From NCBI GenBank assembly GCA_000004985.1, contig GG738848.1: DNA of 64,000 bases. The stretch is one strand, 5' to 3'. The position numbers and the translations under genes were made by a program. The first letter of the stretch is position 1; each line of letters opens with the position of its first letter. Origin of the DNA: Naegleria gruberi (Eukaryota). The notes below the pieces were generated by a model. The model was not told the origin of the DNA. It saw only the letters and a program-made list of their open reading frames with translations, and made no database searches. This document shows, piece by piece, positions 15,112 through 23,639 of the stretch.

Positions 15112-16182
15112 ATGAAAAATATTGATAGTGATTGTATGGTATTTGTTTTGGAATTTATGAGTGTGGCGGATCATGTTTATCAATTATCGAGGGTGTGTTC
15201 CGATTGGAGAATAAATTCAATCAAGTTTATTGTGAGGTATTTGGACAAGAGGTATGCAATGTTGGGAGATTTAGTGAAACAATTCGAAACTTGTTTTGGG
15301 TGTTCAGTATCGGGAAGGAAAATGAGAAAGTTTCTGATGAGATGCCATGTCAGAGACTTGGCAGAATATTTACTTGATTCATATGAAGGAGTCCACGAAA
15401 ATCAACAGTTCACCATTCTTTGGGTTAAGAGTGAAATGGAAATTCTGTGTAATTACTTGAAAATTTCTAATAGGATGAAATCAGATGGCAACCAAACTAA
15501 ATCTACTGGGTTTTTCACAAAGATTGGAAAATTATTCTCTAAAAAAACACATGACAAGGCATCTATTCAATCACCCAACAAAGAGGTAGAATCTAATATG
15601 AAACAATTTGATTATATCAATGTGGAGTCTTCTATTCAGGGAAATTTGAATGATTTAGAACGATACTATCTTGTCAATGCTATTATGGGAATTGAGTTTA
15701 TACCAGAGTATGATGAGGAGGGAAACTTGGATGAGAGTGTATTTTCGAGAGCGTGTCTTTATGGAAGCACTGATATTGTGTTGGAATTGAAAGATTGGTT
15801 CAAGATTCATTTGAATATTAGATATCCTAAACTCACAAGTGACAATTTGGAACCTAAAAGTTTGCTATCTCACTCACACCTTCTAATGATATCAGGAATA
15901 TCAATGCAGACAAACAGAAATAACTTGGAATTAATTAAGGAGCTCGACTTGAATAAGAAACTATTTAAAGATGATTCATGTAAGGTTTCCAATTACGAGC
16001 AAGTGGTTGTTGGTGTCAAGGTTAGTGATCCTCTCTTAAACTCACAACAAATGATTCAAACAGCATTTAGTTTTGATGGATTGCAATATTTCGAGTTTAA
16101 CGTCAGCAATCCACATCAAATGAGAGTATTATATTGGTATTCAATATTAATGTCATTCATTCTAAGTTTTTTAAATAGTTAA
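15112..16182 (+). CDS. F-box-like domain protein, 356 aa, function unknown
   Basis: ATG at 15112. The N-terminus MVFVLEFMSVADHVYQLSRVCSDWR fits the F-box pattern (L..L....F......L.....VC..W). No other recognisable domain. Confidence 0.5.
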   Translation: MKNIDSDCMVFVLEFMSVADHVYQLSRVCSDWRINSIKFIVRYLDKRYAMLGDLVKQFETCFGCSVSGRKMRKFLMRCHVRDLAEYLLDSYEGVHENQQFTILWVKSEMEILCNYLKISNRMKSDGNQTKSTGFFTKIGKLFSKKTHDKASIQSPNKEVESNMKQFDYINVESSIQGNLNDLERYYLVNAIMGIEFIPEYDEEGNLDESVFSRACLYGSTDIVLELKDWFKIHLNIRYPKLTSDNLEPKSLLSHSHLLMISGISMQTNRNNLELIKELDLNKKLFKDDSCKVSNYEQVVVGVKVSDPLLNSQQMIQTAFSFDGLQYFEFNVSNPHQMRVLYWYSILMSFILSFLNS

Positions 16183-16213: not shown

Positions 16214-17185
16214 CTACAAGATTATCTGCACAGATAATTTCATCTTGGGGAAAAGTTTGGAAACTTCATCCACACATGCCAATTCGTTTTCTGTTAAATC
16301 CAATTGTGTTAAATTTGGTAATTTGCCAATAAATTCCAAATGTGCATCCTAAAAACCTTTAAAATAAAGTATTCCTATATTTTTACATACCTTAACCCTA
16401 CATTTTTTCAATTTTAAAAATTCCAGATTTGTCAATTTGCTTAAACATGTAGCTCCTGTAATGTGTAGGAATCCATTTTCTATTTCTAATCGTTTTAAAT
16501 TAATTAATTCAGAAATTGACATTAGTGCATGATCTCCAATACAATGATTTTCAATTATCAATGAAGTCAATTGTGTTATTTTTTTAAATTCTAAAAAAAT
16601 TGATTTTTTAGGATAAAATATTTCTCTGCCTGATGAATTGATAAAGCAAAGCTCCCTCAAATGGATTAATTTGCTTATTTGATCCAAATGATGGATCTCA
16701 ATATCGTGTACAATTAATTTTCTTAATTTGGGTAAAATTGCCAAATCATGTAAATCTTCCATAATGTAACTCAATTCCAATTCTTCCAAATTTATCAATT
16801 TTTGTAAAGGACTCAACGAAGAGGTAATTTTAGTAAATTTTAAATATTTCAAATTGACAAATTGTGAAATAATTTCCAAAATAAAACTACCATCACAAAT
16901 GAGATATTGTAAATTGATGAAAATTTCTACATGTTCTTGTTTTAGAAAATTGTAAATATTTCGGATGTGTAAATTGTGAGCATTCCGAAACTTTTTAAAA
17001 GCACTAGTAAAATAATTCCAAATATTTTCATCACGAATTAAACTTGTGCGAATGAGGGAAAGTTTAGTTGTGAATAAACATCGCAACCACTTTTCACAAA
17101 CCAAAGAACACACTTGAATTAGAAACTTTGGTTCATGAAATACAAAAATTTGATGAGAAATAATTTCATCCGGTAATTGTTCCAT
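16214..17185 (-). CDS. F-box/LRR-repeat protein; join(17185..16391,16348..16214)
   Basis: F-box LPDEIISHQIFVFHEPKFLIQVCSLVCEKWLRCL sits at the N-terminus. LRRs follow (LINLEELELS, LPKLRKLIVHD, LIHLRELCF). A 42-nt intron runs GTATGT(16390)...TTTTTAG(16349). Its acceptor TAG is also the stop of the unspliced ORF. The join ...KKCRVK|DAHLEFIGKLPNLTQLDLTENEL... continues the LRR pattern. Confidence 0.6.
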
Positions 17186-17228
17186 TTTTTTTAATAAAAT
17201 TTAAAACAATTTTTTTTTCAATTTTTTA

Positions 17229-17273
17229 CATTTATAGTAAAAACAATGAGACAACAAGCTCGAAAACATTGAG
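17229..17273 (-). repeat. Retroelement short repeat B2 (45 bp), putative 3' boundary
   Basis: Identical to B1. A 370-bp spacer separates it from A2. Confidence 0.75.
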
Positions 17274-17438
17274 TTTATTCTTCTACGCGTACACAAATTG
17301 CATACACTTTTATCCTCTTTTCATTCATTCAGCCATCCAGCCAGCTCAGTATTCATGGATATACTACTATATCATACTAAACTAACCTTAGACTGAATAA
17401 ACTCACATATTTGCAACTACTAGCAAAACAAACCAAAT

Positions 17439-17497
17439 AGATATTCCTATGAATATCTATTCGAACTTCAGTAGATATTCCATTGAATATCTACTTA
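17439..17497. repeat. Two adjacent perfect hairpins (10-bp and 11-bp stems, 4-nt loops) in the retroelement 3' spacer
   Basis: Hairpin 1 is atagatattc-ctat-gaatatctat. Hairpin 2 is agtagatattc-catt-gaatatctact. Both share the core agatattc/gaatatct. A GC-rich tract follows at 17520..17640. Confidence 0.7.
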
Positions 17498-17642
17498 AAA
17501 AACCCTCATTGGGTATTGATCGTGACAAGGGCTATCCCGGTGTCAACATGTTAAATTATCGCCACCTTCCTGGCCGATCAAATGACACCGTCGTCTATTA
17601 AGCCAATATAATACTTACAGATATTTTCGATCTAGGGTGGGG

Positions 17643-17844
17643 TGGTGGGTCATCTTAAGTATGTCAGTGATGGTTTCTTGAATTGTTGATTGACTCATAA
17701 TGTGTTGCAATTTTTTCAACTTGAGTTTTACTTTCCTTCAGTAAAACTCTCTATTTAACCTAAATTTTCATTGTAAAATTTAGGTTGACTACGTTACCTG
17801 GTTGTCTATTGTTTTTACAATATAAACTTACGTAAGGTGTGGAC
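17643..17844 (-). repeat. Retroelement repeat A2 (202 bp)
   Basis: Identical to 21688..21889. It follows B1 immediately after the ORF A stop. Confidence 0.85.
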
Positions 17845-17887
17845 CTTACTACCATTTATAGTAAAAACAATGAGACAACAAGCTCGA
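17843..17887 (-). repeat. Retroelement short repeat B1 (45 bp)
   Basis: The sequence catttatagtaaaaacaatgagacaacaagctcgaaaacattgag repeats at 17229..17273. It is flanked on both sides by the decamer gaccttacta. Confidence 0.8.
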
Positions 17888-17914
17888 AAACATTGAGACC
17901 TTACTAGCATAAGT

Positions 17915-20900
17915 TTAGAAGCCCATCAAGTGTGAACCGTTTCTATCACCTCTAAAGTTAGCTCGAAAATATCTGTCTATAGCATCTGAATTCCAACCAC
18001 CCATGGCCTTGATGGTAGCATCAGGGATACCCATAATGGCAGCCTCCGTGGCTCCACCAATTCTCAACGAATGAGAAGAGTACTTTCCTGGATCAGCTTC
18101 GATCCATGTTGCAACCTGAGTTAAGATGTAAGAAATCTCAACTGTATTTAAAGAAAAACCACCGGTAAACAAAAACTTTCCTTTGTCTCTTGAATCAAGT
18201 AATTTTTGAAGCCATTTCATCGGACACAATTCAGAACCTGTCGCTTCGATACATGATTTTCTTCCTTTCTTATCATTCTTCACTTTTCTCACTGTTATAC
18301 TAAACCCCACCACCGGGAACTTCACAATCTTTAGATCCTCTATTAATAAACCACCCAATTCTGAACCCCTAAACATTGACCTTATACCAAAAATCATTAG
18401 GCACGTGTATAGAACATATGATTTTTCTTTAACAAACTGTCTACCAACAATTACCCATTTACAAATAAATTCTATTCTCCATGGATCTCTTTCTCTCTTT
18501 GTCGCCACTGTAGCCAGATTGCACATACCCTTTATCACCATCTGTACTCTAATGTTTACTGTAATATCCTCCCAACCAATCCTTTTACAAAAATGCTTAA
18601 TAGCATACATTGCACTTCGACAGTTATTACCAGATGGTGTTTTGATGAACATAAAGGTGAGAAATCTGACTACCATTTCACTAGTTGCTGGTGGAACCTC
18701 TTTTTGCTTAATAAGAAAGTTGATAAATCTATTCCAATAACTTTCATAGTTGTCTGTTGTGGATATTTCAATTGAACATGACATTAATGTATCTGCAATC
18801 TTACTCAAATCGTGACTCTGCAGTCTACTAATGTTGCTCTTATGGTCCAAAATCCTTTGCATGGTTCTAGGTTCCCTCCTTGGGAGGCTCTGAAATGATT
18901 TCCATCTAGATTCATAAAACGAATTTGATAACTTTCTATTATCTTCCACCACCACCTCTTTTTCCATACTGGATGAACCAATACCATAACTGCTTTGGAC
19001 TCTAGACAATGTTGTAATACTCTCCCTATTAGATTGAAAGGTACGCAGCACCAATTTACCACTGGCTCTGTCCAAAGGTGAGAGAATGAATCTGCTTTCT
19101 CTCTTCTGCTGGTCTTCTTTCTCACTGTATATGGTTTTGTCTTGAAGTTGTAATGAGAGGCGAATCTGTCCCATCCTATTGATACATCCAGCTGCTTCTC
19201 TACTAATTGAAAAGCTTCTTTGGTAATCTCCCAATCTGTTGGGTCTTTCTCTTGAATATTTCTGCTCAGATTGTCCGCTACTTGATTCTCCTCCGAAGGT
19301 AACCATTCTAACGAAAGCAAACGGATGTCGTGTTCGAAAATAATGCGCCATATTAGTTGAATCAATTGATTCATAATGGGAGACTTTGCTCTTCCCTTCA
19401 TTATACAATATAGAGCCACCTTTGAATCCGTGTAAACAATTAAATTCTTTCCTTTCAAAAGATGTGACCATTCTTTTAGGGCAAGATAGATCGCTCTCAC
19501 TTCTAATACATTGATATGTTCTTGGCATTGTTCTCCCTTCCAAAAACCTTGTAGTTTCAAATTTCTTTCTTTGTGGAAAACTCCCCATCCCAATCTCGAT
19601 GCATCTGTCCAAAAGTATTCCACTAAGCTTGGATATTGGAACACCTTTCCATTCCAATGGTCCAAGTTGTATAAAATCCATTGGAGATTGAAAATTACAT
19701 CTCGGTCTCTGATGCGAAATTCGGAATCCCAGCCTCCAATATTCACCTAGTCCACCACTAAAGAATAAATCGGATTCAACATCACCCTTGCAGGTTGGAA
19801 ACAGTCTACATAAGCAATTATAATACCAGTCATCCGAAACAGTTCTCTGGATGTTACTTTCTGATCTTGGTGATACTTGGCAAGGGCTATGGAAATACGA
19901 GTTCGAATTTTCTCTAATGTAGCTTCTGTCATAATTAATTTCCTGCTGACCAGATCTATCTTGATCCCAAGTAGTTGAAAGACTTTTAATGGAGTTAACT
20001 GACTCTTCTTCTTTTCGATAACTACACCTAATTCTGCACATACCATTGTAACGAATGTATTGTTCCTTAATGCAGATAAATAGGAACCAAAATGTAATAA
20101 ACCAACATCGTCTAAGTAATTGGATGGTGTTAAAGAATCTGATCTCAAAAAATTGATAAATACATTCATCATTTGTGTAAAAAAGTATGGAGATCCATTC
20201 CATCCAAATGGAAGGACTGTGAATTGCAAAACCTCTTCCTCTACTTGAATGGCAAAGTATGGTCTGTCCTTCCTTTTTACCTTCATCTGGTGATATCCGG
20301 ATTTCATATCGAACATAGAACCCCAAATTTGATCTGTCTTGTTCATTGGTACGTGTTCTAAAAACTTCTTCAACGTGTTGTACTTGAATTTGGGGATAGA
20401 ACAAAACCGATTGAGCGGTCTTAAATCGATAATCAGTCGGTATGATTCTTTCTTTGGGACCAGCCGATACTTGGCTATCACTTTTGGATTGTGACAAGGT
20501 TCCAAAGCTCCAATCTCTTTCAAAATACTCACTTCTCTTTTTAACCATTCTCTCTCTTCCAAAGACCATTCTTCTAAATTTACCTTTCCATAGTATGGAA
20601 CAAATTCTTCGTTTGTTTGAACTGATACACCCTCTTTCAACATATCCACTATTTCCATTGAAGCTCCTTTCTTCCTCCAGGTATCCCATTTGTTCGAAAT
20701 GGAATGAATAGCCTCTCTTCTTTCTTCTACCTCTCGGAAAAAACAAATCATCTACATACTCTGAACCCTCTCTTTTATTTCTCTTAGGGCAATCTTTGAT
20801 CAGATGGTTTGGGTCATTACAAATAAAGCATTTCTTCACTTTCTTCATACCATTAGCACTACCAAACATATTCACCTTTTCCTCTGCCTTATCTTTCTTA

Positions 20901-21754
20901 TCATAAATCTTGGCATTTGCATAGGATTTAACAAAACTTGTCTTACCCTTCTCCTTATGGTCGAACTTGAGTAGTTTTTCTGCCATCTTAAGCTTATCCA
21001 TGTTCTCACGCCATAATGGATTGCTTTCTATAAACGCCAATTTAGATGCTAATTCTGGATTGACGGCTTGAACTTGTAATTGGAAAGCTCTTGTCTCTAA
21101 GTTCGCAACCATTTTCTTCGTATCATCTATTTCTGGGAAAAGATTAGCTATCTTCATTGTAAAAGCAGAATCCTTTCTCAAATTCTCATATTCTGTAAGA
21201 AGACTAGAATTAGTTGTTGGCAATGGTGTGTAGATTGTATCTGTGTATTTTCTAACTTCAGATTCAGCTGCCAATTGTTGTAAAACACGTTCTGTTTCAG
21301 CTTTTTCCAGCTTCATCTGTGCAATCTTAGCATCGATTATTTGTTCATAAGCCTTAAATCTCTTCACATCTTCTTCTGATACCTCTTCTCTCTTTCTCTT
21401 GTTAGAGCCATCTTCAACTTCTACAACTGACTCACCATCGTCCTCTTCGTCATCATCATCGTCATCATCATCTCTTGCTTCCTTGAATGCATGTTTAATC
21501 TCATCCTTTAACTTCTCTACATCTTTACTCTTGCCACTTGTGCAAACCGTAAACTTGTCTGCACCAATAAAGTCAACAATTGCCTTTGCCAATACCTTCT
21601 TTTGGCCAGAAACTTCAATTTCCAAGGTACCTATAATCTTTTGTATCAAGGCCTTTGTTAACTTTCCAACAGCACTTTTATCATGCTTCTTAAGTATGTC
21701 AGTGATGGTTTCTTGAATTGTTGATTGACTCATAATGTGTTGCAATTTTTTCAA
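17915..21754 (-). CDS. Retroelement ORF A: Gag-like N-terminus with CX2CX4HX4C zinc knuckle, then a C-terminal tyrosine recombinase, in one uninterrupted 1279-codon frame
   Basis: Starts MKKLQHIMSQ within repeat A1. The knuckle is CFICNDPNHLIKDCPKR. The YR boxes are HSLRIGGATEAA and GGWNSDAIDRY at the C-terminus. The middle ~600 codons have no recognisable domain yet stay open while overlapping the RT/RH frame. Confidence 0.75.
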   Translation of the reverse strand: MKKLQHIMSQSTIQETITDILKKHDKSAVGKLTKALIQKIIGTLEIEVSGQKKVLAKAIVDFIGADKFTVCTSGKSKDVEKLKDEIKHAFKEARDDDDDDDDEEDDGESVVEVEDGSNKRKREEVSEEDVKRFKAYEQIIDAKIAQMKLEKAETERVLQQLAAESEVRKYTDTIYTPLPTTNSSLLTEYENLRKDSAFTMKIANLFPEIDDTKKMVANLETRAFQLQVQAVNPELASKLAFIESNPLWRENMDKLKMAEKLLKFDHKEKGKTSFVKSYANAKIYDKKDKAEEKVNMFGSANGMKKVKKCFICNDPNHLIKDCPKRNKREGSEYVDDLFFPRGRRKKRGYSFHFEQMGYLEEERSFNGNSGYVERGCISSNKRRICSILWKGKFRRMVFGRERMVKKRSEYFERDWSFGTLSQSKSDSQVSAGPKERIIPTDYRFKTAQSVLFYPQIQVQHVEEVFRTRTNEQDRSNLGFYVRYEIRISPDEGKKEGQTILCHSSRGRGFAIHSPSIWMEWISILFYTNDECIYQFFEIRFFNTIQLLRRCWFITFWFLFICIKEQYIRYNGMCRIRCSYRKEEESVNSIKSLSTTWDQDRSGQQEINYDRSYIRENSNSYFHSPCQVSPRSESNIQRTVSDDWYYNCLCRLFPTCKGDVESDLFFSGGLGEYWRLGFRISHQRPRCNFQSPMDFIQLGPLEWKGVPISKLSGILLDRCIEIGMGSFPQRKKFETTRFLEGRTMPRTYQCIRSESDLSCPKRMVTSFERKEFNCLHGFKGGSILYNEGKSKVSHYESIDSTNMAHYFRTRHPFAFVRMVTFGGESSSGQSEQKYSRERPNRLGDYQRSFSISREAAGCINRMGQIRLSLQLQDKTIYSEKEDQQKRESRFILSPLDRASGKLVLRTFQSNRESITTLSRVQSSYGIGSSSMEKEVVVEDNRKLSNSFYESRWKSFQSLPRREPRTMQRILDHKSNISRLQSHDLSKIADTLMSCSIEISTTDNYESYWNRFINFLIKQKEVPPATSEMVVRFLTFMFIKTPSGNNCRSAMYAIKHFCKRIGWEDITVNIRVQMVIKGMCNLATVATKRERDPWRIEFICKWVIVGRQFVKEKSYVLYTCLMIFGIRSMFRGSELGGLLIEDLKIVKFPVVGFSITVRKVKNDKKGRKSCIEATGSELCPMKWLQKLLDSRDKGKFLFTGGFSLNTVEISYILTQVATWIEADPGKYSSHSLRIGGATEAAIMGIPDATIKAMGGWNSDAIDRYFRANFRGDRNGSHLMGF
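18805..20751 (-). CDS. Retroelement ORF B: reverse transcriptase plus RNase H, in the +1 frame relative to ORF A, with one in-frame stop at 19747..19749
   Basis: RT motifs are LPFGWNGSPYFF and SNYLDDVGLL. The RNase H motif is LIVYTDSKVALYC / TDASRLGWGVF. The two track ORFs 19747..20751 and 18805..19746 share one frame and are split by a single stop. The frame begins exactly where the Gag part of ORF A ends, which suggests a frameshift junction near 20751. Confidence 0.75.
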
Positions 21755-21889
21755 CTTGAGTTTTACTTTCCTTCAGTAAAACTCTCTATTTAACCTAAAT
21801 TTTCATTGTAAAATTTAGGTTGACTACGTTACCTGGTTGTCTATTGTTTTTACAATATAAACTTACGTAAGGTGTGGACCTTACTACCA
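21688..21889 (-). repeat. Retroelement repeat A1 (202 bp), contains the ORF A start codon
   Basis: Identical to 17643..17844 by direct inspection. Confidence 0.85.
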
Positions 21890-21940
21890 ATTATTTAGAA
21901 TTTACAAATATAGATAATAATATACAAATAATCGGCAAGA

Positions 21941-23639
21941 TTACTTTTGAGAAACCATATTCTTTGCAATGAGGAGGGATACATTCTTTGCTGAGATTAG
22001 GTTAGTTTCCATAGTACTGACAACACTTTCAACACTATTCGTATAGTAAATATTATTGTGGAGTTTGACAGGAGGTTGAATATTATTTGGTTTGAGAATT
22101 GGATAACTTCCATGTTTCCAAACTTGTTGAACTACTGATGTGGCTCCAACAAACATTTCCTGTAATGTTTTGGTTGAAAGTGGCTCATGACTATACGATT
22201 CGAATATTCTTTCTGATTCATCAGGTGTCTTTCCAATAGGTGCAATATTATTGAGTGGTAGATATTTGGTCAAAAGTGGTTTCATTGTTGTAATATACAC
22301 ATCTGATTCAGAGCAATCAGTTCCAAAATAATTCTTGTTCAAGTCCTTTGCACGAATAATGCTAGTAATCAGAATATTCATATCACGTTTTTGTAAGGCA
22401 GATGGAGGAAGTTTGATATTTTCAAATTTGATATTTGTAAACTCGAGTGGAGTTGCAACAATTACATAATCAAATTGACCGAGTTCAGAATTGTTTCCAC
22501 TCTTGAGAGAATACTTGTTTGATGCTGGATCGAATGAAATTTCAGAAACTTCACTATTCAACTTTAAGGTCAATCGATCTTTTGGAATTGATTCAATGCA
22601 ACCAAGTGGAACTTTTGAGGTTCCTTCAAGAACATGTCTAAAATCAGAAACTGCTCCAGCTAATCCAATAATTCCTCCATAGGCACTGATTTGATCAGAG
22701 TTTTGCATATAATTGATTCTCAAAATTGGATCACAATATTCCTTGATAAAACGTTCTTGAATCCAATTATTTCTTGCATATTCATAGAAAGTCAATTTGG
22801 TCAAATCACTCATTCCAGTATCTTGACAAAAATCTTCAGTACTTTCCCATGTATAGACCTTACTCAATGTTTCTGCATTTAATGGACCAGTCGATGGCAA
22901 TTCTTGGAGTTTGTAAATATTTAAAAATCTCTCCTTTGACAAGTAGTAATTAACACTTCTCTTCAATAAGAAGAGAGGAATACCAAAATCATATCTCCAT
23001 GCTCCTCTAATTGCAGTCTTCCACCAACTGTCAGATTCACAAAATACCATTCTCTTTTCGTCACCATTAAATATACCAATTCTGACATTAAAATGAGGTT
23101 CTTCCAATGTCAAATTAAACTTTTCAATCAAGCCCAAAATGTACTTGTTTTCCAAAATGACAGATGATCCACCCACTTCATATGAATACTTTGAATTTTG
23201 TCAATTAATTTTGATTCTGAAACATTAATTATAATAAACAAACCTTGTATGGATCCTTCTCATCCTGATACAAGACCATTTCCTTCAAACGACCTCCAAC
23301 TCGATCATCCCTCTCATAAACCACCAATTCAATTTCTCTCTTCATTTCTTGAGAATTGGAATTTGGCTCTGGTGAAGAAGAAGAGGAATCATTTTCTCTT
23401 CTATTCATCTCATCAACCAATTCGGAGAGAAAGTAGGCAGAGCCAGAACCAGAAATTCCACTGCCAATAATTGCAACTCTCTTATTGATCATTGAATTAT
23501 TAGCAACCTTTGGTGTTTCAGCTTGAATGGTTGTTGTAGGAAGGATCATGGAGTTTTTAGTGTGAGAAAAGTAGTTAGATCCGATCAAGCCAACTGAACC
23601 AACAGACAAAGTGGCAGCAACTAGACGTTTTAAAGACAT
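21941..23639 (-). CDS. Prenylcysteine oxidase (PCYOX1-like flavoprotein); join(23639..23244,23188..21941)
   Basis: An N-terminal signal-like segment is present. The FAD motif is VAIIGSGISGSGSAYFLSE...ELVVYERDDRVGGRL. A 55-nt intron runs GTTTGT...CAAAG, and the join ...DPYK|YSYEVGGSSVIL matches the conserved YEAGGSVIH block. A C-terminal Prenylcys_lyase-like region is present (GGIIGLAGAVSDFRH...VIVATPL). Confidence 0.7.

What the first reader, a model, noticed from the sequence alone, without database searches (positions are those of the whole stretch)
17915..21754. Overlapping-frame coding layout: a 1279-codon Gag...YR frame stays open across the whole RT/RNase H region, which sits in the +1 frame
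ORF A runs uninterrupted for 3.84 kb. It encodes Gag at its start and the tyrosine recombinase at its end. RT and RNase H are encoded in another frame (20751..18805) that overlaps the featureless middle ~600 codons of ORF A. In DNA of about 35% GC, a 1.9-kb stretch with no stops in a non-coding frame is very unlikely by chance, so the open frame is probably selected. Either Gag-YR is made as a fusion and RT/RH by +1 frameshifting near 20751, or there is a two-step shift out and back. My recollection is that DIRS1 also has overlapping ORFs, but the gag/YR continuity here is unusual. The RT/RH frame carries one internal stop (19747..19749).
Basis: seen in the sequence. Interest (0 to 1): 0.75.

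Follow-up and report, generated by a model that had tools for sequence, protein, structure and literature searches.

The report
Stop-free Gag-to-recombinase frame over polymerase
A 4.7-kb tyrosine-recombinase retrotransposon of the amoeba Naegleria gruberi keeps one reading frame free of stop codons from its Gag gene, across the whole polymerase gene (which sits in the +1 frame), to its recombinase gene; this looks like a selected way to get ribosomes to the recombinase, and it extends an ORF overlap already known in DIRS elements.

Summary
On the minus strand, 21754..17915 is a 1279-codon stop-free frame with a Gag zinc knuckle at the start and a tyrosine recombinase (YR) at the end. RT/RNase H/MT-like pol lies in the +1 frame (20751..18805) with one TAG.

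The openness is selected. In pol, 0 of 192 codons that precede AA/AG/GA end in T, against 166 of 455 elsewhere. Synonymous shuffles expect 39±4 stops.

The layout is conserved:
- Three 99.8-99.9% identical copies in N. lovaniensis all carry an intact 676-codon pol in the +1 frame. Two keep an uninterrupted 1332-codon Gag..YR frame; in the third that frame ends early (1235 codons).
- Several metagenomic relatives share the layout. Some have a single stop after gag.

Only the openness of the middle is conserved, not its amino-acid sequence.

A U6-C run (UUU UUU CCG) at the gag/pol junction is shared by both Naegleria elements. It is a candidate +1 slip site.

The TAG in pol is a sense codon in all relatives, so it is probably a defect of this copy.

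Long pol/YR ORF overlap is already described for DIRS1-like elements (PMC3266345). I found no description of Gag-YR continuity or of the stop-avoidance statistics. I rate this a new variant of a known kind, of moderate interest. Expression was not tested.

The parts
17229..21894 (-). Whole element (4666 bp): a DIRS-order tyrosine-recombinase retrotransposon of Naegleria gruberi. It is inserted in a ~90-bp spacer between two host genes.
   Evidence: The host is identified by an exact match of the neighbouring ORF to XP_002681926.
21688..21894 (-). A1, the 5' terminal direct repeat (207 nt). It includes the 5' UTR and the first codons of ORF A.
   Evidence: Identical to 17653-17859 except for one edge mismatch.
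17915..21754 (-). ORF A: a 1279-codon stop-free frame running Gag - unconserved middle 'X' - tyrosine recombinase. The probable start is the ATG at 21733.
   Evidence: The N. gruberi annotation XP_002682075.1 starts at 21733.
20783..20836 (-). Gag CCHC zinc knuckle (CFICNDPNHLIKDC).
   Evidence: Pfam zf-CCHC at aa 307-324 of ORF A.
20735..20743 (-). UUU UUU CCG in the Gag frame: the candidate +1 slip site (or transcriptional slippage site). It lies 9 nt after the last stop of the pol frame (TAG 20754-20752).
   Evidence: Sequence. CCG is a rare Pro codon. The same TTTTTTCC occurs at the N. lovaniensis junction. No significant RNA structure lies downstream.
19750..20751 (-). pol part 1 in the +1 frame: reverse transcriptase (RVT_1 at 19957-20460, YLDD motif intact).
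   Evidence: Pfam RVT_1, E 4.8e-18. 57-60% identity to metagenomic relatives and 44% to N. lovaniensis pol.
19747..19749 (-). In-frame TAG inside pol, probably a copy-specific nonsense mutation. In the ORF A frame it is a silent Leu codon (CTA).
   Evidence: Relatives have Met or Leu at this column and no stop.
18805..19746 (-). pol part 2 in the +1 frame: RNase H (19261-19608) followed by the DIRS-type methyltransferase-like domain (about 18808-19254, with DRFAS in place of DLFAS).
   Evidence: Pfam RNase_H/RVT_3. The DxFAS columns are invariant in alignment A1 with a Dam-positive homologue, P0004. There is no direct Pfam Dam hit for the window protein.
18808..20752 (-). Region X: the 648 codons of ORF A that fully overlap pol. 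It is kept free of stops but is not conserved as protein. It is rich in Arg and Ser and poor in Ala.
17918..18805 (-). Tyrosine recombinase, the non-overlapping 3' part of ORF A (Pfam match 17969-18421). The HSLRIGG and RYF motifs are present.
   Evidence: Pfam Phage_integrase. 55% identity to P0025/P0026 and 46% to the N. lovaniensis YR.
17853..17897 (-). B1 repeat (45 nt). It abuts A2, so B1-A2 has the sequence of a 3'-end/5'-end junction.
   Evidence: Identical to 17229-17273.
17653..17859 (-). A2, the internal copy of the 5' terminal repeat.
17274..17652 (-). C, a 379-nt unique spacer between A2 and B2. It holds two copies of the palindrome TAGATATTC-N4-GAATATCTA (17435-17496).
   Evidence: An equivalent spacer exists in N. 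lovaniensis (497 nt), L004 (336 nt) and L062 (425 nt).
17229..17273 (-). B2, the 3' terminal repeat.

Best explanation
The locus is a near-intact DIRS-order (tyrosine-recombinase) retrotransposon of Naegleria gruberi. Its termini are split direct repeats in the order A1...B1A2-C-B2.

Its single RNA appears to be decoded in two frames.

- Frame 0. Ribosomes start at the Gag AUG (21733). Those that stay in frame 0 meet no stop for 1272 codons. They read Gag, then a 648-codon stretch X that overlaps all of pol, then the recombinase. The product is a Gag-X-YR fusion of about 145 kDa (inferred).
- Frame +1. A fraction of ribosomes, or of transcripts, shift +1 at the U6-C run (UUU UUU CCG, 20743-20735) and make Gag-Pol with RT, RNase H and an MT-like domain (inferred).

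X is not a protein domain. Selection acts only to keep it free of stops, by banning T at the third position of every pol codon that precedes AA, AG or GA (shown). X therefore serves as a bridge. It carries ribosomes roughly 2 kb to a 3'-distal enzyme that has no conserved AUG of its own, in an element with no protease and no evident subgenomic RNA.

This particular copy carries a nonsense mutation in pol (TAG at 19749-19747), so it probably depends on RT supplied in trans.
For: Shown:
1. The frame 0 ORF and the +1 pol sit at the stated coordinates.
2. Stop avoidance is extreme: 0 stops against 39±4 expected, and 0 of 192 against 166 of 455 T-ending codons.
3. The same avoidance is seen in every relative that has the overlap: L001 0/150, L002 0/104, L060 0/68, L061 1/162, L004 0/179, L019 0/121, L062 0/124 and N. 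lovaniensis 0/174. DIRS-like loci without the overlap (L009, L010, L011) behave like the shuffles.
4. N. lovaniensis holds three copies that are 99.8-99.9% identical over 4.78 kb, so the family was recently active. Two have the 1332-codon Gag..YR frame intact, and all three have an intact 676-codon pol in the +1 frame.
5. The amino-acid sequence of X is not under extra constraint. At conserved pol residues, third-position identity is 50.9% (41.6% expected). In the non-overlapping YR it is 52.5% (43.0% expected). The comparison with L001 and L002 gives the same picture. ORF A has no Pfam hit between the zinc knuckle and the integrase.
6. In L001 the pol frame has no AUG until codon 46 after the upstream stop, although pol homology begins earlier.
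7. In L001, L019 and L007 the YR part has no Met before or inside its conserved N-terminal domain. This argues against independent initiation.
8. The U6-C run at the junction is conserved between the N. gruberi and N. lovaniensis elements, which share only 44% pol identity. CCG is rare in N. gruberi.
9. Gene callers find many proteins of 870-1352 aa with a YR at the C-terminus and no RT: 23 of the best 150 representatives. P0066 has a zinc knuckle and an integrase but no RT.
Against: - There is no expression data of any kind. Neither translation of X nor a Gag-X-YR protein has been observed.
- A 650-residue unselected polypeptide between Gag and YR is an odd thing for a working enzyme to carry.
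- The rare A-site codon is not conserved: CCA in N. lovaniensis against CCG here.
- L001 has a different T-rich sequence, not U6.
- No stimulatory RNA structure was detected (z = 0.2).
- In other lineages (L004, L018, L019, L002) one stop separates gag from the X-YR frame, so the fusion there would need read-through.
- The window copy has a stop in pol, and only one copy could be examined in N. gruberi itself.
Confidence: 0.5

Rival explanations
1. The stop-free frame is selected to protect the RNA, not to make YR. Ribosomes that fail to shift keep translating to near the 3' end. The genomic RNA then never presents a premature stop followed by a 3-kb 3' UTR, and so escapes nonsense-mediated decay. 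YR would be made by some other route, such as internal initiation or a subgenomic or spliced RNA.
For: Only openness is conserved, not the X sequence. ORF A ends 18 nt before the B1 repeat, near the 3' end of the unit. A window-copy Met lies 8 codons after the pol stop.
Against: In L001, L019 and L007 the YR has no AUG that would preserve its conserved N-terminal domain. Lineages with a gag stop (L004, L018, L019) still keep X open after that stop, which a pure decay-avoidance argument does not explain.
Confidence: 0.15
2. A two-step recoding makes one Gag-Pol-YR polyprotein: +1 into pol near 20740, then -1 (or +2) back into the YR frame near 18810.
For: The frame geometry allows it. YR lacks a conserved AUG. 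The pol and YR frames overlap at the pol stop.
Against: This route needs only short overlaps at the two junctions. It does not explain why 648 (or 676) codons are kept free of stops. No canonical -1 slippery heptamer occurs in the last ~250 codons of pol in either Naegleria element, and none is conserved near the pol end.
Confidence: 0.1
3. X is a true overprinted gene product, that is, a functional domain or accessory protein encoded in the -1 frame of pol.
For: The open frame is ancient and widespread. X has a consistent Arg/Ser-rich composition in both Naegleria elements.
Against: pol synonymous sites are no more conserved in the overlap than in the non-overlapping YR. X identity is 28-33%, as expected as a by-product of pol conservation. 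There are no Pfam hits. The shared composition follows from the pol codons.
Confidence: 0.07
4. The pol region is removed as an intron, giving a spliced Gag-YR or YR mRNA, as the N. gruberi gene model XP_002682075.1 implies.
For: The annotated 559-aa model joins 21733-20282 to 18154-17918 across a GT...AG pair in frame.
Against: The model keeps only the last ~76 residues of YR, which gives a non-functional recombinase. Splicing would not require X to be open. N. lovaniensis gene models use different junctions. The model is probably an ab initio artefact.
Confidence: 0.04
5. The open frame is a chance or compositional by-product.
For: None beyond the a priori possibility.
Against: P is about 1e-38 in this copy. 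The result is replicated independently in 8 or more relatives with 37-62% GC. Control elements without the overlap match the shuffles.
Confidence: 0.01

Closest known systems
DIRS-1 of Dictyostelium discoideum and DIRS1-like elements with a 'long ORF overlap' (Piednoel et al. 2011, PMC3266345; Wiegand et al. 2014, PMC3950715)
   Same: Both have Gag, RT/RNase H/MT-like pol and a tyrosine recombinase, and lack a protease and a DDE integrase. The YR ORF extends far upstream over pol in another frame, and the catalytic YR domain lies in the non-overlapping 3' end. About half of 28 annotated DIRS1-like elements show the long overlap.
   Different: Here the termini are direct (A1...B1A2-C-B2), not inverted repeats plus an ICR. 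The overlap covers all of pol. The YR frame is continuous with Gag, with no stop at all. I found no published statement of that continuity, or of selection acting on openness only. The two key reviews (Goodwin & Poulter 2001; Poulter & Butler 2015) were not available to me.
PAT-like elements (PAT, kangaroo, TOC): DIRS-order elements with split direct repeats
   Same: Split direct repeats with A at the 5' end and B1-A2...B2 at the 3' end. pol has an MT-like domain. [quoted passage not shown]
   Different: The classical layout is A1...B1A2B2, with B2 directly after A2. Here a 379-nt spacer C separates A2 from B2. The spacer is 336-497 nt in three relatives. Phylogenetic placement was not computed.
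Ty1/Ty3 programmed +1 ribosomal frameshifting (from general knowledge)
   Same: pol is in the +1 frame of gag. A P-site codon can re-pair in +1 (UUU to UUC) and is followed by a rare codon (CCG) in N. gruberi.
   Different: In Ty elements the gag frame terminates shortly after the shift site. Here it runs on for another 940 codons to a second enzyme. The site is untested, and the rare codon is not conserved in N. lovaniensis.
Hepatitis B virus P/S overlap (from general knowledge)
   Same: A very long overlap of two coding frames in a reverse-transcribing element, in which one partner is a poorly conserved spacer.
   Different: In HBV the unconserved spacer belongs to the polymerase and overlaps a functional envelope gene. 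Here the conserved polymerase domains are overlapped by an unconserved spacer of the Gag-YR frame. The two are not homologous.
Gag-stop-Pol read-through (murine leukaemia virus type), and the relatives seen here with one in-frame stop
   Same: Distant DIRS-like loci have gag-UGA-pol in one frame (L010-L014), or gag-UAG-[X-YR] in one frame with pol in +1 (L004, L018, L019), in contexts such as UAG-GGA and UGA-CUA.
   Different: The window element and the N. lovaniensis copies have no stop after gag, so no read-through is needed.

Membership tests
DIRS order (tyrosine-recombinase retrotransposons) | Reverse transcriptase plus RNase H | tested here: met
   Pfam RVT_1 at E 4.8e-18, plus RNase_H, RVT_3 and RT_RNaseH hits.
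DIRS order (tyrosine-recombinase retrotransposons) | Tyrosine recombinase instead of a DDE integrase, and no aspartic protease | tested here: met
   Phage_integrase at aa 1112-1262 of ORF A. The HSLRIGG and RYF motifs can be read in the sequence. No rve or RVP hit occurs in any frame product scanned.
DIRS order (tyrosine-recombinase retrotransposons) | Gag-like first ORF | tested here: met
   zf-CCHC at aa 307-324, preceded by coiled, acidic N-terminal sequence.
DIRS1-like superfamily | Inverted terminal repeats plus an internal complementary region | tested here: not met
   No inverted terminal repeats are found. The termini are direct repeats.
DIRS1-like superfamily | Methyltransferase-like domain after RNase H | tested here: inconclusive
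   The window pol C-terminus gives no Pfam Dam hit. However, its DRFAS motif aligns with the invariant DxFAS columns of homologues, one of which (P0004) hits PF05869 Dam.
DIRS1-like superfamily | Long overlap of the YR ORF with pol (present in about half of members) | tested here: met
   648 codons of overlap.
PAT-like superfamily | Split direct repeats A1...B1A2B2 | tested here: inconclusive
   A1 (207 nt), B1-A2 abutting and B2 (45 nt) are all present. A 379-nt spacer separates A2 from B2. The same layout occurs in L063, L004 and L062.
PAT-like superfamily | Phylogenetic grouping of RT/RH with PAT, kangaroo and TOC | not tested
Ngaro superfamily | No MT domain, ORFs usually not overlapping, often an extra SGNH hydrolase ORF | tested here: not met
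   An MT-like DRFAS domain is present, the overlap is complete, and there is no fourth ORF.
Programmed +1 ribosomal frameshift site (Ty1-like) | P-site codon able to re-pair in +1, followed by a slowly decoded codon, located between the last stop of the +1 frame and the start of pol homology | tested here: inconclusive
   UUU UUU CCG lies 9 nt after the pol-frame stop. CCG is used 1.1 times per 1000 codons. The U6-C run is conserved in N. lovaniensis, but there it is followed by CCA. L001 differs.
Programmed +1 ribosomal frameshift site (Ty1-like) | Demonstrated trans-frame protein | not testable with these tools
   Needs proteomics or a reporter assay.

The most novel reading that the evidence does not exclude
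A deep clade of DIRS-order retrotransposons expresses its recombinase through a translated bridge. The bridge is about 650 codons laid over the entire polymerase gene. Its only selected property is the absence of stop codons, so that Gag-frame ribosomes run on to the 3'-distal YR. Pol is reached by +1 recoding at a U6 run. This would be one of the longest complete dual-coding overlaps in a eukaryotic element, and a distinct answer to polycistronic expression without splicing, a protease or an IRES.
Probability: 0.45. Interest if true: 0.65.

Novelty: new variant of a known kind. Interest (0 to 1): 0.5.

Why it matters
It is not known how DIRS elements translate three proteins from one RNA. The literature I could read records the pol/YR overlap but offers no mechanism for it.

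This locus and its active N. lovaniensis relatives add three things:
- The overlap can cover all of pol.
- The overlapping frame can be continuous with Gag.
- It is maintained purely by stop avoidance.

Together these make a specific model testable: a frame-0 Gag-X-YR fusion plus +1 recoding at U6-C. Reporters, proteomics, or stops in X that are synonymous in pol would each test it.

There are also practical consequences. Because both frames are open, frameshift mutations create long chimeric ORFs. This misleads gene finders and TE classifiers. Examples are XP_002682075.1 in N. gruberi, the intron-bridged models in N. lovaniensis, and the 'too many frameshifts' remark about N. gruberi in PMC3266345.

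Tried and rejected
- The word-indexed homologue search with the whole ORF A returned nothing: 8000 candidates, none significant, probably swamped by the acidic and basic low-complexity runs. Searches with pol and with YR separately worked.
The 3-sequence alignment returned only distant relatives of 25-30% identity.
- No second copy of the element exists in the window. Exact look-ups of the window ORFs found no other N. gruberi copy.
- Rfam found no match in 17000-22200.
- Folding 160 nt from the junction gave no stability above shuffles (z = 0.2).
- A canonical -1 heptamer near the pol end, which would support an out-and-back shift, was not found or conserved.
- Pfam gave no direct Dam/MT hit for the window pol C-terminus.
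- Goodwin & Poulter 2001 and Poulter & Butler 2015 are not held. I therefore could not check whether Gag-YR continuity was described there.
- I considered whether the frame changes in L001, L002, L015, L018 and L062 are programmed. I treat them as indels in decayed copies, because the N. lovaniensis copies lack them. The point remains open.
- Structure prediction of X was not run. A single-sequence model would be uninformative either way.

Full report
**1. What is there**

The window is Naegleria gruberi. The host ORF 15112-16179 is an exact match to XP_002681926.

On the minus strand, 21894..17229 is a 4666-bp retroelement.
- ORF A (21754..17915) has 1279 codons without a stop.
- It carries a CCHC zinc knuckle at aa 307-324 and a Phage_integrase (tyrosine recombinase, YR) match at aa 1112-1262. 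Nothing is recognisable between them.
- The +1 frame holds RVT_1 (E 5e-18) in 20751..19747 and RNase H in 19746..18805.
- Next comes a domain whose DRFAS motif aligns with the DxFAS columns of the DIRS methyltransferase-like domain. One homologue hits Pfam Dam, but the window protein does not.
- One TAG (19749-19747) interrupts pol.

**2. Is the open frame more than chance?**

Yes.
- A stop in the ORF A frame requires a pol codon ending in T followed by AA, AG or GA.
- Among 192 such contexts none has T. In the other 455 positions 166 do, so P is about 1e-38.
- Permuting synonymous codons gives 39.2±4.2 stops, with a minimum of 22 in 20,000 permutations.
- The third frame has 75 stops.

**3. 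Relatives**

Only one copy lies in the window, so I fetched relatives.

*Closest relatives from metagenomes*
- L001, L002/L003 and L060 share 55-60% pol or YR identity.

*N. lovaniensis*
- The related family has 44% pol and 46% YR identity to the window element.
- Three genomic copies are 99.8-99.9% identical over 4.78 kb.
- L063 and L064 each have one 1332-codon stop-free frame running from a CCHC Gag to the YR.
- All three copies have an intact 676-codon pol in the +1 frame.
- L065 has the long frame cut short at 1235 codons.
- In L063 the frame that overlaps pol (the -1 frame relative to pol) has 0 stops where 40.7±4.3 are expected, and 0 of 174 against 177 of 501 T-ending codons.

*More distant DIRS-like contigs*
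- The same stop avoidance appears in L061 (1/162), L004 (0/179, 61% GC), L019 (0/121) and L062 (0/124).
- It also appears over the 3' 464 codons of L007.
- L009, L010 and L011 lack the overlap and match the shuffles.

*Exhaustive profile search*
- 23 of the best 150 representative proteins are 870-1352 aa long with the YR match in the last ~300 residues.
- Those scanned have no RT in the long N-terminal part.
- P0066 (1352 aa) has a zinc knuckle and an integrase, which is the same Gag..YR layout.

*Relation of gag to the X-YR frame*
- gag and the X-YR frame share one frame, with pol in +1, in the window, N. lovaniensis, L001, L062, L004 and L019. L018 fits once a single indel inside its pol is allowed for.
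- They are separated by no stop in both Naegleria elements, L001 and L062.
- They are separated by one stop, in contexts such as AGA-UAG-GGA, in L004, L018 and L019.

**4. What is selected?**

Only openness is selected.
- Between the window and N. lovaniensis, third-position identity at conserved pol residues is 50.9% (41.6% expected if independent).
- This is indistinguishable from the non-overlapping YR, at 52.5% against 43.0%.
- Comparisons with L001 and L002 give the same answer.
- The 28-33% identity of X is the by-product of pol conservation.
- X is rich in Arg and Ser and poor in Ala in both species.

**5. How might it be decoded?** (inference)

*The gag/pol junction*
- The pol frame is closed by a TAG at 20754-20752.
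- pol homology to relatives starts within a few codons after that.
- Entry into pol must therefore occur around 20751-20715.
- There the Gag frame reads GAU UUG UUU UUU CCG AGA.
- The same TTTTTTCC occurs at the N. lovaniensis junction (CAG UUU UUU CCA AGA).
- tRNA-Phe can re-pair in +1 (UUU to UUC).
- CCG is a rare codon in N. gruberi: 4% of Pro codons, 1.1 per 1000.
- L001 has no AUG in the pol frame for 46 codons.
- No downstream RNA structure stands out.
- Transcriptional slippage on T6 is an alternative I cannot separate from ribosomal slippage.

*The recombinase*
- The YR has no Met that would preserve its conserved N-terminal domain in L001, L019 or L007.
- No -1 heptamer is conserved near the pol end.

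*Simplest reading*
- Unshifted ribosomes translate Gag-X-YR.
- Shifted ones translate Gag-Pol.
- The out-and-back model does not explain why the whole of X must be open.
- An RNA-protection role (escape from nonsense-mediated decay) could act alongside this.

**6. The TAG in pol**

All relatives have a sense codon there: Met in P0002 and N. lovaniensis, Leu in P0003. A single TTG-to-TAG change would be silent in ORF A (CTT to CTA). This copy is probably RT-defective even though its A1 and A2 repeats are essentially identical.

**7. Termini and classification**

- The layout is A1 (207 nt) ... B1 (45 nt) abutting A2 ... a 379-nt spacer C ... B2.
- The same order, including the spacer, occurs in N. 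lovaniensis (187, 44 and 497 nt), L004 (120, 37 and 336 nt) and L062 (300, 79 and 425 nt).
- There are no inverted terminal repeats, so the element fails the DIRS1-like terminus criterion.
- It resembles PAT-like split direct repeats with an added spacer.
- An MT-like domain argues against Ngaro.
- I did not compute a phylogeny.

**8. What is known**

- Piednoel et al. 2011 (PMC3266345) state that pol and YR ORFs may overlap considerably, and that the catalytic YR domain is in the non-overlapping 3' end.
- They found long overlaps in half of 28 annotated DIRS1-like elements.
- They found 7 sequences in N. gruberi with 'too many frameshifts or indels'.
- Other papers say only that the ORFs frequently overlap.
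- In the papers I could read I found no mechanism, no statistics on stop avoidance, and no mention of a Gag-YR continuous frame.
- Two central reviews were unavailable.

**9. Verdict**

- It is a new variant of a known kind: the long DIRS ORF overlap extended to a complete overlap fused to Gag, in a lineage with split direct repeats.
- Expression is untested.

Noticed in passing
window 17435-17496 (spacer C, 17274-17652); L063 10203-10445: The spacer between A2 and B2 holds two copies of a 22-nt palindrome, TAGATATTC-N4-GAATATCTA. The equivalent spacer in N. lovaniensis holds eight copies of (T)GGGATGCCT. These may be binding sites for the recombinase or another protein.
   Followed up: partly
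window 21733-20282 joined to 18154-17918: The N. gruberi annotation XP_002682075.1 (559 aa, 'predicted protein') is built from Gag, 149 codons of the overlapping frame X and the last ~76 residues of YR. It bridges them with a 2.1-kb GT...AG 'intron', so a retroelement is annotated as a host gene. N. lovaniensis models (1139-1389 aa) likewise bridge the frames with introns.
   Followed up: partly
L001 1076-1118 and about 2690; L015 against L019; L062 2683-2697; L002 2068 and 3200; L018 5934: Several relatives have indels that swap pol into the Gag/YR frame, or split pol between frames, without creating early stops, because both frames are open. This produces long chimeric ORFs (for example the 850-aa P0002, and the 997-codon pol-YR frame of L015). 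I could not decide whether any of these are functional rearrangements or just decay.
   Followed up: partly
L010, L012, L013, L014 (stop at 813, 3063, 943 and 813); L018 4722; L019 1821; L015 827: Distant DIRS-like elements have a single in-frame stop after gag in contexts that look prone to read-through (UGA-CAA, UGA-CUA, UAG-GGA-GAC). It is followed in the same frame either by pol or by the X-YR frame.
   Followed up: no
window 17617-17634 and 17959-17976: An 18-nt stretch at the start of spacer C is 94% complementary to a stretch inside the end of the YR ORF. This is of borderline significance for a 6.5-kb region, and it is unclear whether it is an ICR-like pairing.
   Followed up: no
window 21895-21943 and 17186-17228: The element sits in a ~90-bp intergenic spacer, 46 nt after the stop of one host ORF (21941-23176) and 43 nt before the ATG of the next (17185). 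There is no target-site duplication. The 5' flank (ctaaataattg) resembles the end of repeat B (ctataaatg), which hints at a preferred recombination site.
   Followed up: no
window 18808-20751, third frame: The remaining frame (+1 relative to pol) has slightly more stops than synonymous shuffles predict: 75 against 65.5±3.3. This is probably a by-product of replacing T-ending codons with A- or G-ending ones.
   Followed up: no
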